Notes: generated by a model from the letters alone, not told the origin. DNA of 64,000 bases from Escherichia coli (GCF_003334315.1 NZ_QOWR01000018.1); one strand, 5' to 3'. Shown: positions 36,639 through 37,178, numbered from the stretch's first letter. A program made the numbers and translations.

Positions 36639-36857
36639 ATGACTAAAAACTATGAACTGATTGTGAAAGGGACCCGCAATTTTGAGAATAAAGTTACGGT
36701 AATCTTAACGTTACAGGACAAAGAACGTTTTGCCGGTGAAATTTTTGATCTGAACATCAACCTTGAGCGACTTGAAGGAGCTGGTTTGGATTATTATGAA
36801 GTTACTGCGGTAAAACATGCCAAACAGTTCTTGAGAGATTTGGCTGAAAAAATATAA
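36639..36857 (+). CDS. Hypothetical protein (72 aa) within the lysis cassette
   Basis: ORF starts 5 nt after the holin stop. Confidence 0.45.
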   Translation: MTKNYELIVKGTRNFENKVTVILTLQDKERFAGEIFDLNINLERLEGAGLDYYEVTAVKHAKQFLRDLAEKI

Positions 36858-36881
36858 AGCGGCATTACTGCCGCTTAGAAA

Positions 36882-37178
36882 TTATTCAATGTCTGGTAGC
36901 TTATCAAAGATTTCGGATACTCTTATATTTGTCATATAAGCAAATTGAGATTCTGCCAGCTCTTTGGGTGATTTTCCCGCTTTTTCTGAGCCAAAAATTG
37001 TTTCTAAAGCCAGCATGTTATATTTGAGAACCTCTTCTCGAGTTTTACCTGATAATTTTGCGGTAACAGCAATATAAAAAGGCAACACTTTATCCAGAAG
37101 GTCGTTGTGTTTTGTCAGTTGTGGTAATACCACATCAAGTTGCTTACTGATTGGTTTGAATGGATCTATACCGTTCAT
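36882..37178 (-). CDS. Hypothetical protein (98 aa), opposite strand within the lysis cassette
   Basis: ORF convergent with the preceding gene; possibly YdfR-like by position. Confidence 0.4.
   Translation of the reverse strand: MNGIDPFKPISKQLDVVLPQLTKHNDLLDKVLPFYIAVTAKLSGKTREEVLKYNMLALETIFGSEKAGKSPKELAESQFAYMTNIRVSEIFDKLPDIE

What the first reader, a model, noticed from the sequence alone, without database searches (positions are those of the whole stretch)
36639..37178. Convergent pair of unknown genes between the holin and the endolysin
A 72-aa ORF (plus strand, starting 5 nt after the holin stop) and a 98-aa ORF (minus strand) interrupt the holin-endolysin pair. Genes at this position may modulate lysis timing (antiholin-like) or be moron cargo; the minus-strand gene would be transcribed against late transcription.
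Basis: inference. Interest (0 to 1): 0.3.

Follow-up and report, generated by a model that had tools for sequence, protein, structure and literature searches.

The report
Prophage moron pair with shared leader
The two small genes between the prophage's holin and endolysin are real, but they form an accessory ("moron") cassette rather than a lysis timer: a YdfR-type late-strand gene plus a backwards-facing gene whose promoter and structured RNA leader are shared by dozens of unrelated small prophage genes.

Summary
Both ORFs exist as described and both are under purifying selection. ORF72 (36639-36857, +) is the N-terminal domain of YdfR/DUF1327. This is the same 72-residue fragment of E. coli K-12 YdfR that was reported in 2026 to bind the catalytic half of RNase E. 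ORF98 (36882-37178, -) belongs to a tiny family of soluble four-helix proteins with no known relative. ORF98 homologues always lie backwards inside late operons of lambdoid prophages: between tail genes, before the holin, after Rz, or here. Each one converges on a small late-strand partner gene. So the pair is a mobile two-gene cassette of the kind annotated as morons in HK022 (gp22/gp23) and ES18 (gp24/gp25), not a lysis module. The unexpected result lies upstream of ORF98 (37179-37298, -). It is a sigma-70-like promoter followed by an ~80-nt leader with a covariation-supported hairpin and invariant motifs (UCAGCC ... GGGAUGGCUGAUUACCUCU). The same element precedes at least 28 unrelated small-protein families in more than 120 phage contigs. 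It matches no Rfam family. I have no expression data, and the function of ORF98 remains unknown.

The parts
36419..36634 (+). Context: S21-type class II (pin)holin essD, 71 aa, with dual-start motif M-K-S-M
   Evidence: PHROG holin families phrog_9876 and phrog_20. RefSeq names it essD. Sequence read.
36639..36857 (+). ORF72: late-strand partner gene. It consists of the DUF1327/YdfR N-terminal domain only. RBS GGAG lies 9 nt upstream, inside the end of the holin gene.
   Evidence: Pfam PF07041, E = 2.4e-26, model positions 1-72 of 93. 58% identical to K-12 YdfR residues 1-72. dN/dS 0.15-0.32. GC 36.5%.
36847..36876 (-). Intrinsic terminator of ORF98: stem AAGCGGCA/UGCCGCUU, loop GUAA, tail UAUAUUUUUU. 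It overlaps the stop codon and last codons of ORF72.
   Evidence: Terminator scan. The Cronobacter copy has the same hairpin and tail; only one spacer base outside the stem differs.
36882..37178 (-). ORF98: reversed cargo gene encoding a 98-aa soluble four-helix protein (phrog_25324, function unknown)
37179..37257 (-). Conserved 5' leader of the ORF98 mRNA, running from the predicted transcription start to the ATG. Includes SD AAGGGAA at 37186-37192.
   Evidence: Covariance-model hit, 77 bits, E = 9e-18, the only copy in the window. Alignments A7-A9. RNAalifold consensus.
37229..37249 (-). P2 hairpin of the leader (CGUCAGUG ... UACUGGCG)
   Evidence: 7 of 8 pairs show changes on both sides across 70 leaders; 96.8% of cells paired; 0 of 500 shuffles reach the observed covariation.
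37197..37214 (-). Invariant motif GGGAUGGCUGAUUACCUC. GGCUGA (37204-37209) can pair with UCAGCC (37250-37255) to form P1. The flanking G-run (37212-37216) can pair with CCUCU (37196-37200) to form P3. P1 and P3 together could form a pseudoknot.
   Evidence: One match in the window; 0.07 expected by chance. At least 120 phage contigs carry it. P1 and P3 are nearly invariant, so covariation cannot test them.
37262..37298 (-). Promoter-like region of ORF98: conserved block TATCAGGAT (37290-37298), -35-like TTATCA (37284-37289), 16-nt spacer, -10-like TATGTT (37262-37267). Predicted start at about 37255-37257.
   Evidence: Position profile of 143 distinct upstream regions: TAnnnT at -12..-7, with T 0.90, A 0.95, T 0.90. 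Sequence read. Inference only; the generic promoter scan did not list it.
37306..37839 (+). Context: SAR-type endolysin rrrQ. Its start codon lies about 50 nt upstream of the leader, inside the cassette's promoter-distal flank.
   Evidence: phrog_7 endolysin. RefSeq rrrQ. Maximum hydropathy 1.78, consistent with a hydrophobic signal-anchor segment, which by reading of the sequence lies at the N terminus.

Best explanation
Window 36639-37298 is one copy of a modular two-gene accessory ('moron') cassette that circulates among lambdoid prophages of Enterobacterales. The annotated prototypes are HK022 gp22/gp23 and ES18 gp24/gp25.

Shown:
- Both genes are real and under purifying selection.
- ORF72 is the YdfR/DUF1327 N-domain, on the late strand.
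- ORF98 is a reversed gene with its own intrinsic terminator. It is preceded by a conserved promoter-like block and an ~80-nt leader whose central hairpin shows covariation.
- The same promoter-plus-leader precedes at least 28 unrelated small cargo families.
- The cassette occurs at many different late-operon positions, almost always with a convergent late-strand partner.

Inferred:
- ORF98 is transcribed from its own sigma-70 promoter in the repressed prophage.
- The transcript starts at about 37255-37257, so its 5' end is immediately folded into the leader. This would stabilise the mRNA and/or control translation.
- ORF72 is made only with the Q-dependent late lysis transcript.
- That convergent late transcript, and possibly the partner protein, then silences ORF98 during lytic growth.
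- ORF98 protein acts as a lysogen-expressed accessory factor by binding a host or phage protein, not as part of the lysis machinery. Its target is unknown.
For: Real genes.

Extra DNA. K-12 Qin has essQ-ydfR-rrrQ with no reversed gene. Only 58 of 5426 complete E. coli genomes carry the ORF98 segment. Both ORFs are 36% GC, against 47-55% around them.

Own terminator.

Mobility of the pair. ORF98 homologues are reversed and converge on a small late-strand ORF in every context seen:
- between tail I and J
- after Rz, next to the terminase
- upstream of the holin
- between tape measure and M, and between M and L

Shared leader:
- at least 120 phage contigs per scan
- 100 distinct cargo proteins in 28 clusters
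- 127 of 134 cassettes have a convergent partner
- P2 covariation: 7 of 8 pairs, 0 of 500 shuffles
- RNAalifold independently predicts P1 plus P2
- U.G wobble pairs favour the cargo-sense strand
- the -10-like TAnnnT sits 7 nt before the leader

Prototypes annotated as morons: HK022 gp22/gp23, ES18 gp24 (DUF1327)/gp25. SPN3UB gp28/gp29 has the same layout but is annotated only as hypothetical proteins.

YdfR residues 1-72 bind the RNase E N-terminal half and pull down RNA. ydfR is silent in uninduced K-12 (PMC13232886).
Against: - There are no transcript data for this or any related cassette.
- The window's promoter matches only 8 of 12 consensus positions, and the generic scan missed it.
- The leader on its own does not fold better than shuffled sequence (z = 0.33).
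- P1 and P3 are invariant, so they are untested by covariation, and part of that invariance comes from how the copies were collected.
- The late-sense terminator that closes the cassette in tail operons is missing here, because rrrQ starts there.
- ORF98 has no homologue of known function, no informative fold match and no defence-model hit. Its role is therefore conjecture.
Confidence: 0.7

Rival explanations
1. Functional two-component pair. The reversed cargo (ORF98) is an effector made in the lysogen. The late-strand partner (here the YdfR N-domain) is its off-switch or antidote during the phage's own lytic growth. One version: the partner acts as a RapZ-like adaptor that hands the leader-bearing cargo mRNA to RNase E.
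For: A convergent partner is present in 127 of 134 cassettes. There is some cargo-partner specificity: DUF1327 pairs only with ORF98-type cargo, phrog_10490-type cargo and one singleton. The DUF1327+ORF98 block moved as a unit between E. coli and Cronobacter. YdfR 1-72 binds the RNase E N-terminal half and co-purifies RNA. All cargo mRNAs share a leader that begins at the 5' end.
Against: The partner classes (MTLEQR.. coiled-coil type, DUF1327, P93) show no detectable relationship: hhalign probability 0.2%, no Pfam hit, Foldseek finds only the P93 family's own members. The constant pairing can equally be explained by cassette architecture, with conserved flanks used for recombination. Most E. 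coli ydfR genes stand alone, without cargo. There is no interaction or RNA-binding evidence for this protein.
Confidence: 0.15
2. RNA-level function. The leader or transcript is the active part. The ORF98 transcript would work chiefly as an antisense RNA against late transcripts (its own, or those of superinfecting relatives). Alternatively, the leader is a riboregulator that senses a factor, and the encoded protein is secondary.
For: Leader sequence is conserved far beyond its cargo: cargo synonymous sites are saturated, while 21 leader columns are nearly invariant. In most cassettes the cargo 3' end overlaps the partner gene. There is a precedent: prophage BTP1 asRNA STnc6030, antisense to late genes, excludes superinfecting BTP1 (PMC7067206).
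Against: ORF98 and the other cargo ORFs are clearly under protein-level selection, with strong Shine-Dalgarno sites. In the window the terminator stops the ORF98 transcript right at the end of ORF72, so the antisense overlap is only a few codons.
Confidence: 0.08
3. Lysis-timing module. ORF72 and/or ORF98 modulate the pinholin or the SAR endolysin (antiholin-like).
For: Position between holin and endolysin. DUF1327 genes occupy this slot in thousands of E. coli prophages.
Against: No membrane segments. The holin has its own dual-start antiholin motif. DUF1327 partners and ORF98 homologues also occur in tail operons and next to the terminase. ORF98 is transcribed against the lysis genes and is absent from about 99% of E. 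coli lysis cassettes.
Confidence: 0.05
4. One or both ORFs are non-functional leftovers: a truncated ydfR pseudogene and a chance antisense ORF.
For: ORF72 stops at position 72 of a 93-position Pfam model, whereas K-12 YdfR has 103 aa. The region is mosaic.
Against: Short DUF1327 forms of 71-86 aa recur with reversed cargo in Cronobacter, O178:H19 E. coli, ES18 and many Salmonella. dN/dS is far below 1 for both ORFs. Residues 1-72 are the autonomous interacting domain.
Confidence: 0.02

Closest known systems
HK022 moron gp22/gp23 ('Srb protein'), between tail genes I and J (Juhala et al. 2000 annotation)
   Same: Convergent pair: a small late-strand gene plus a reversed small gene. The reversed gene is preceded by the same leader (covariance-model score 94 bits). 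Annotated as 'moron gene product'.
   Different: The cargo (73 aa) and the partner (59 aa, MTLEQR type) are unrelated in sequence to ORF98 and ORF72. It lies in the tail operon, not the lysis cassette. Its function is also unknown.
Salmonella phage ES18 gp24 (DUF1327) / gp25, between tail genes M and L (Casjens et al. 2005 annotation)
   Same: The late-strand partner is a short DUF1327 protein (86 aa as annotated). A reversed ~95-aa cargo follows the same leader (81 bits). Terminators are annotated for both genes. Labelled 'possible moron; function unknown'.
   Different: The cargo belongs to phrog_10490, not to the ORF98 family; hhalign between the two is negative. It has a tail-operon location and keeps the late-sense terminator at the cassette edge.
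E. coli K-12 Qin prophage YdfR (b1555, DUF1327)
   Same: Same slot, between the class II holin essQ and rrrQ. The N-domain is 58% identical. Residues 1-72 are the RNase E-binding fragment.
   Different: K-12 YdfR has a 31-residue C-terminal tail and overlaps the rrrQ start. There is no reversed gene, no leader and no terminator.
HK97 gp15 moron (superinfection exclusion)
   Same: Extra gene inserted in a lambdoid tail operon, described as having its own promoter and terminator and as expressed from the prophage (PMC3594210).
   Different: gp15 is an inner-membrane protein with a demonstrated exclusion phenotype. ORF98 is soluble and untested. Whether gp15 has this leader or a partner was not examined.
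BTP1 prophage antisense RNA STnc6030
   Same: A lysogen-expressed transcript lying antisense inside late genes (PMC7067206).
   Different: It is non-coding and longer than 700 nt. There is no shared sequence, and here the cargo ORFs are under protein-level selection.

Membership tests
DUF1327 / YdfR family (PF07041) - for ORF72 | Significant match to the Pfam profile | tested here: met
   E = 2.4e-26, residues 1-72 on model positions 1-72 of 93. PHROGs 2735, 34145, 2091, 406 and 1085, all through their first ~70 positions.
DUF1327 / YdfR family (PF07041) - for ORF72 | Full-length architecture: N-domain plus C-terminal tail, as in K-12 YdfR (103 aa) | tested here: not met
   The protein ends at residue 72 and the last 21 model positions are absent. 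Short forms of 71-86 aa recur elsewhere, so this is a natural N-domain-only variant.
DUF1327 / YdfR family (PF07041) - for ORF72 | Binding to the N-terminal catalytic half of RNase E, as reported for K-12 YdfR 1-72 | not testable with these tools
   Only 58% identity to the tested fragment. The property is taken from PMC13232886.
Moron (sense of Juhala et al. 2000; definition as summarised in PMC3594210) | Extra DNA between genes that are adjacent in related phages | tested here: met
   K-12 Qin and O157 prophages have holin-ydfR-endolysin with no reversed gene. The ORF98 segment is in 58 of 5426 genomes.
Moron (sense of Juhala et al. 2000; definition as summarised in PMC3594210) | Own factor-independent terminator | tested here: met
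   8-bp GC-rich stem plus U-tract on the minus strand at 36847-36876.
Moron (sense of Juhala et al. 2000; definition as summarised in PMC3594210) | Own promoter | tested here: inconclusive
   Conserved TAnnnT and TTGCT/TTATCA blocks at the right spacing across 143 copies. The window copy is 8 of 12 to consensus and was not listed by the scan. No transcription-start data.
Moron (sense of Juhala et al. 2000; definition as summarised in PMC3594210) | Base composition different from surrounding phage genes | tested here: met
   ORF72 36.5% and ORF98 36.0% GC. Holin 47%, endolysin 51.5%, structural genes 54.6%.
Moron (sense of Juhala et al. 2000; definition as summarised in PMC3594210) | Expression from the repressed prophage | not testable with these tools
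   No transcriptome of a strain carrying this cassette was found.
Leader-bearing convergent cassette (HK022 gp22/23, ES18 gp24/25 type; defined here) | Match to the leader covariance model upstream of the reversed gene | tested here: met
   77.1 bits, E = 9e-18, full length, at 37179-37257 (-).
Leader-bearing convergent cassette (HK022 gp22/23, ES18 gp24/25 type; defined here) | Reversed cargo converging on a small late-strand partner ORF | tested here: met
   ORF72 and ORF98 stop codons are 24 nt apart. Same layout in 127 of 134 cassettes.
Holin / antiholin or other lysis regulators | Membrane-spanning segment, or homology to holin / antiholin / spanin families | tested here: not met
   Maximum hydropathy 0.55 (ORF72) and 0.78 (ORF98), against 1.62 for the holin. 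No lysis-category PHROG hit. AF2 gives a soluble four-helix model.
Known anti-phage defence or toxin-antitoxin proteins | Match to PADLOC, Pfam or NCBIfam models of defence or TA components | tested here: not met
   No hit for either ORF, even at permissive cut-offs (PADLOC E up to 1, Pfam E up to 10, NCBIfam E up to 0.01). The only weak hit (PDC-S51, 2.5e-5, partial) belongs to a different cargo, in locus L004.
Any curated RNA family (Rfam 15) - for the leader | Score at or near a family's gathering threshold | tested here: not met
   Nothing over the leader, either at gathering thresholds or at E up to 10.

The most novel reading that the evidence does not exclude
The promoter-plus-leader upstream of ORF98 is an undescribed, portable cis-regulatory RNA module. 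It would start with a 5'-terminal helix, contain a covarying hairpin, and possibly form a pseudoknot that includes a sequence resembling the 3' end of 16S rRNA. It would mark a large hidden set of small proteins expressed in lysogens of Enterobacterales prophages. The late-strand partners (YdfR N-domain and others) would be the matching off-switches, for YdfR through RNase E. If so, the leader could be used as a search handle to catalogue prophage accessory genes, much as conserved regulators are used to find anti-CRISPR genes.
Probability: 0.3. Interest if true: 0.75.

Novelty: new member of a known kind. Interest (0 to 1): 0.5.

Why it matters
For this window, the result removes a false lead: the pair is not a lysis-timing device. 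It also gives YdfR-type genes a different context, as the late-strand half of a mobile accessory cassette rather than a lysis gene.

More broadly, morons have been treated as one-off insertions. Here at least 28 unrelated small-protein families sit behind one conserved promoter and structured leader, in a fixed convergent layout. This suggests a shared expression and exchange module. If the leader is a true regulatory RNA, it gives two things:
- a testable handle on how prophages switch accessory genes between lysogeny and lytic growth
- a simple sequence probe for listing candidate lysogenic-conversion or exclusion proteins that are currently annotated as hypothetical

The reported RNase E binding by the exact domain encoded by ORF72 makes a concrete mechanism directly testable.

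Tried and rejected
- Is the P93 partner family a remote DUF1327 relative? A MAFFT alignment hinted at a shared ER.E motif. However, hhalign gave 0.2% probability, Pfam found nothing, and Foldseek against AFDB50 found only the family's own members. Not supported.
- Is ORF98 related to the other cargo that pairs with DUF1327 (phrog_10490)? BLASTP and hhalign were negative.
- Fold of ORF98. The AF2 model is good (pLDDT 85.6), but there is no PDB match and only its own family in AFDB50. PDB sequence searches for ORF98, DUF1327 and P93 were empty.
- Is there a leader peptide (AUG inside GGGAUGGCUGA, 'MADYL')? The AUG is lost in 7 of 24 variant leaders (5 have no start codon there, 2 have GTG), while (G/A)GCUGA is kept in all 24 and GGCUGA in 21. 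The reading frame also ends at different points. Rejected.
- Known RNA families: none.
- Defence models: none.
- The genome contigs pattern scan was mostly chance hits in unrelated phyla. After filtering with the covariance model, the identified true hits were all in Enterobacterales (Enterobacter, Pantoea, Serratia, Xenorhabdus, Escherichia); seven further strong hits lie in loci whose record titles were not shown.
- The structure string given to build_rna_model was mistyped by one pair: column 8 was paired to 33 instead of 54. The model was used only for detection, not for structural claims.
- Literature. The two papers that first annotated these morons (Juhala et al. 2000; Casjens et al. 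2005) are not in the library. I therefore cannot exclude that the shared upstream sequence was noted there. A full-text search for the motif found nothing. Source names for all cargo and partner proteins are 'hypothetical' or 'Srb protein'.
- The LF82 Perceval transcriptome list gave no information, because Perceval holds only a partial leader.

Full report
**What is there.** The window is E. coli chromosome carrying a Qin-like lambdoid prophage. Positions 36300-37900 are 100% identical to many complete E. coli genomes, and RefSeq annotates the same genes there. The lysis cassette reads as follows:
- an S21-type class II holin (36419-36634, dual start MKSM)
- ORF72 (36639-36857, +)
- ORF98 (36882-37178, -)
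- a SAR-type endolysin rrrQ (37306-37839)
- the spanin rzpQ with an embedded lipoprotein ORF, followed by cspI

**Both ORFs are real genes.** ORF72 matches Pfam DUF1327 (E = 2.4e-26, model positions 1-72 of 93). ORF98 has no Pfam, NCBIfam, PADLOC or PDB match. It does match phrog_25324 end to end. It has full-length homologues at 57-85% identity in Cronobacter, Serratia, Escherichia sp. and metagenomes, with 27 invariant columns. Its family is very small: 6 representatives at 50% identity among 1.84 billion proteins. Nei-Gojobori counts give dN/dS = 0.08 for ORF98, window versus Cronobacter. In most other ORF98 comparisons synonymous sites are saturated while pN stays at 0.10-0.25 among the closer homologues (up to 0.47 against the two most distant, L010 and L011). 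ORF72 gives dN/dS of 0.15-0.32. Neither protein has a membrane segment. AlphaFold2 gives ORF98 a confident four-helix model (pLDDT 85.6). That model resembles nothing in the PDB and only its own family in AFDB50.

**ORF72 is the YdfR N-domain.** It is 58% identical to residues 1-72 of K-12 YdfR. A 2026 study isolated exactly this fragment, YdfR 1-72, three times in bacterial two-hybrid screens. The study showed that YdfR binds the N-terminal catalytic half of RNase E (and RNase G), that it co-purifies Rne(1-598) and RNA, and that ydfR is silent in uninduced K-12 (PMC13232886). In K-12 Qin the order is essQ-ydfR(103 aa)-rrrQ, with no reversed gene. The window differs from K-12 between about codon 50-72 of ydfR and codon 13 of rrrQ. 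Only 58 of 5426 complete E. coli genomes, plus phage Evi, carry the ORF98 segment.

**The pair is a mobile cassette, not a lysis module.** Every ORF98 homologue whose context could be read lies backwards in a late operon and converges on a small late-strand ORF. The contexts are:
- between tail genes I and J in Serratia
- after the spanin, next to the terminase, in Cronobacter; the partner is again a 71-72-aa DUF1327 and the terminator hairpin is the same, with one spacer base outside the stem differing
- directly upstream of a lambda-S-type holin
- between tape measure and M, and between M and L

In the tail-operon and pre-holin copies the partner is a different family of 93-99 aa, which I call 'P93' (alignment A5). 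It has a confident beta-sheet-plus-helix model. It shows no detectable relation to DUF1327. Both ORFs in the window are 36% GC, against 47-55% for their neighbours.

**The conserved promoter and leader.** Aligning the regions upstream of ORF98 homologues showed non-coding conservation much stronger than in the genes themselves. It also extends to a cassette with an unrelated cargo, in E. coli O178:H19.

- Scans. The 18-nt core GGGATGGCTGWTNAMCTC occurs once in the window (0.07 expected). A second scan, anchored on the 5' hairpin instead, again reached the limit. That scan showed GGCTGA kept in 65 of 68 distinct copies.
- What follows the element. There are 100 distinct small ORFs in 28 BLAST clusters, mostly 63-99 aa. 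All fall in 'unknown function' PHROGs. One has a weak Lar/ECs_2282 zinc-ribbon hit.
- Partners. In 127 of 134 cassettes a convergent late-strand ORF ends at or overlaps the cargo's 3' end. The main partner classes are a coiled-coil type starting MTLEQRVEALEK (cluster 0, by far the largest with 77 of 134 loci, though it also absorbs P93-type partners), DUF1327 (16 loci) and P93.
- Named phages. HK022 gp22/gp23 is annotated 'moron gene product', and gp23 is called 'Srb'. SPN3UB has gp28/gp29. ES18 has gp24/gp25; gp24 is a DUF1327 protein between tail genes M and L. The element is also in mEp043, mEp213, HK633, Oslo and Evi.
- Taxonomic range and frequency. After covariance-model filtering, the identified hits in genomes of 100,044 species all lie in Enterobacterales (Enterobacter, Pantoea, Serratia, Xenorhabdus, Escherichia); seven further strong hits were in loci whose record titles were not displayed. 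The full leader is in 123 of 5426 complete E. coli genomes.

**Anatomy of the element (cargo-sense strand).** A profile of 143 distinct copies shows, in order:
1. an A-run and GC hairpin at -76..-55; on the late strand this reads as an intrinsic terminator closing the cassette
2. a conserved TATCAGGAT at -43..-35
3. TTGCT at -33..-29
4. a -10-like TAnnnT at -12..-7 (T 0.90, A 0.95, T 0.90)

These positions are counted from the U of UCAGCC, so transcription should start at or 1-2 nt before UCAGCC. The leader then reads UCAGCC, the P2 hairpin, an A-rich linker of about 13 nt, AGAGG-GAU-GGCUGA-UUA-CCUCU, the Shine-Dalgarno sequence, and the AUG.

On 70 leaders (alignment A9), P2 has changes on both sides in 7 of 8 pairs, and 96.8% of cells are paired. 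No shuffle out of 500 reached the observed covariation, and shifting the pairing register by 1-3 columns abolishes the signal. Frequent U.G pairs favour the cargo-sense strand. RNAalifold independently predicts P1 (UCAGCC/GGCUGA) enclosing P2.

P1 and P3 (AGAGG/CCUCU) are almost invariant. They are therefore neither supported nor contradicted by covariation, and they would form a pseudoknot or be alternatives to each other. A few variant leaders change both strands of P3, which is suggestive only. The window copy has all the elements: TATCAGGAT 37290-37298, TTATCA 37284-37289, TATGTT 37262-37267, P1 37250-37255 with 37204-37209, P2 37229-37249, and the motif 37197-37214. It lacks the late-sense terminator, because the rrrQ start codon occupies that place. 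No Rfam family matches, and the motif string occurs in no searchable paper.

**Most likely mechanism.** Shown: a reversed, selected gene with its own terminator, preceded by a conserved promoter-like block and a structured leader, paired with a late-strand gene, in a cassette found at many late-operon sites. Inferred:
- ORF98 is transcribed from its own promoter in the lysogen.
- Its mRNA 5' end is folded into the leader, giving protection from 5'-end-dependent decay and/or translational control.
- ORF72 is produced only from the antiterminated late transcript.
- That transcript, and perhaps the partner protein, shuts ORF98 off during lytic growth.

What ORF98 does is not known. A small soluble helical protein expressed from a prophage most plausibly acts by binding a host or phage protein, in lysogenic conversion or exclusion, but nothing tested here shows that.

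**Rivals.**
- A true two-component system, in which the partner neutralises the cargo. For YdfR this could mean acting as an RNase E adaptor on the shared leader. This is attractive given and the near-universal pairing. However, the partner classes are unrelated, and most ydfR genes lack cargo.
- An RNA-level role, antisense or riboregulatory. The extreme leader conservation and the BTP1 STnc6030 precedent speak for it. Protein-level selection on the cargo ORFs and the short antisense overlap here speak against it being the main function.
- The lysis-timing idea. It is contradicted by the absence of membrane segments, the holin's own dual start, and the tail-operon copies.

**Novelty and limits.** Morons of this layout were annotated in HK022 (2000) and ES18 (2005), so the pair is a new member of a known kind. 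The shared promoter and leader across unrelated cargo families is, as far as I could check, not curated or described. I could not read those two papers. The copies were collected by exact motifs, which inflates the apparent invariance of the anchored segments. There are no expression data at all.

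Noticed in passing
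L003 1501-1566 (E. coli O157:H7), L336 1501-1559 (phage Perceval); corresponds to window 37226-37305: Many E. coli prophages that lack a reversed gene still keep the promoter half of the leader just upstream of the endolysin, together with the reverse complement of UCAGCC plus the 5' half of P2. In O157 the long YdfR (114 aa) ends inside this remnant. Perceval has it in a 370-bp unannotated gap. This looks like a scar of cargo loss, and it suggests the holin-ydfR-endolysin arrangement often derives from a decayed cassette.
   Followed up: partly
L004 388-945 and PHROG hits: phrog_1085 (296 positions) is matched at positions 1-70 by ORF72 and at positions 117-296 by a separate 185-aa gene that sits between the holin and the short DUF1327 gene in an O178:H19 prophage. 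In some phages, therefore, the YdfR N-domain appears to be fused to a ~180-aa C-terminal domain. The N-domain seems to be a module with interchangeable tails.
   Followed up: no
window 34149-36228: A YbgA-family gene (DUF523/DUF1722 type, 319 aa) and an AraC/HTH-type regulator gene (240 aa) lie immediately upstream of the holin, at the classic Q-to-S accessory-gene position. A YbgA-like gene occupies the same position, between the antiterminator and the cassette/holin, in metagenomic locus L011.
   Followed up: no
window 36297-36318 (+): A strong intrinsic-terminator-like hairpin with a T-run lies about 100 nt upstream of the holin start. It could end the AraC-like gene's transcript or act as a tR'-like site for Q antitermination.
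   Followed up: no
window 25238-25289 (-), 30693-30867 (+), 38539-38955 (+), 63488-63686 (+): Rfam gathering-threshold hits elsewhere in the prophage: DicF sRNA, sok antitoxin RNA (hok/sok type I toxin-antitoxin), the cspA-type thermoregulator leader in front of cspI, and IS009 RNA.
   Followed up: no
window 37987-38283 (+): A 98-aa ORF lies in another frame inside rzpQ and carries a lipobox-like LTSC motif. It is the embedded o-spanin (rzoQ-type), as annotated in K-12 Qin.
   Followed up: no
L004 1205-1492 (-): The alternative reversed cargo paired with DUF1327 (phrog_10490, ES18 gp25 type; on more than 1000 Salmonella contigs) gives a weak partial hit to the PADLOC candidate defence model PDC-S51 (E = 2.5e-5, model positions 99-161 of 376).
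   Followed up: no
L067 356-373 and 4481-4498: One phage contig carries two leader-bearing cassettes about 4 kb apart, with different cargo. A single prophage can therefore hold several copies of the module.
   Followed up: no
partner ORFs across loci L018-L137: The commonest late-strand partners share a conserved N-terminus, MTLEQRVEALEK, but have divergent C-termini that overlap the cargo's 3' end. P93 partners also begin MTLE. The conserved 5' end of the partner and the conserved leader may be the two flanks between which cargo is exchanged by recombination.
   Followed up: partly
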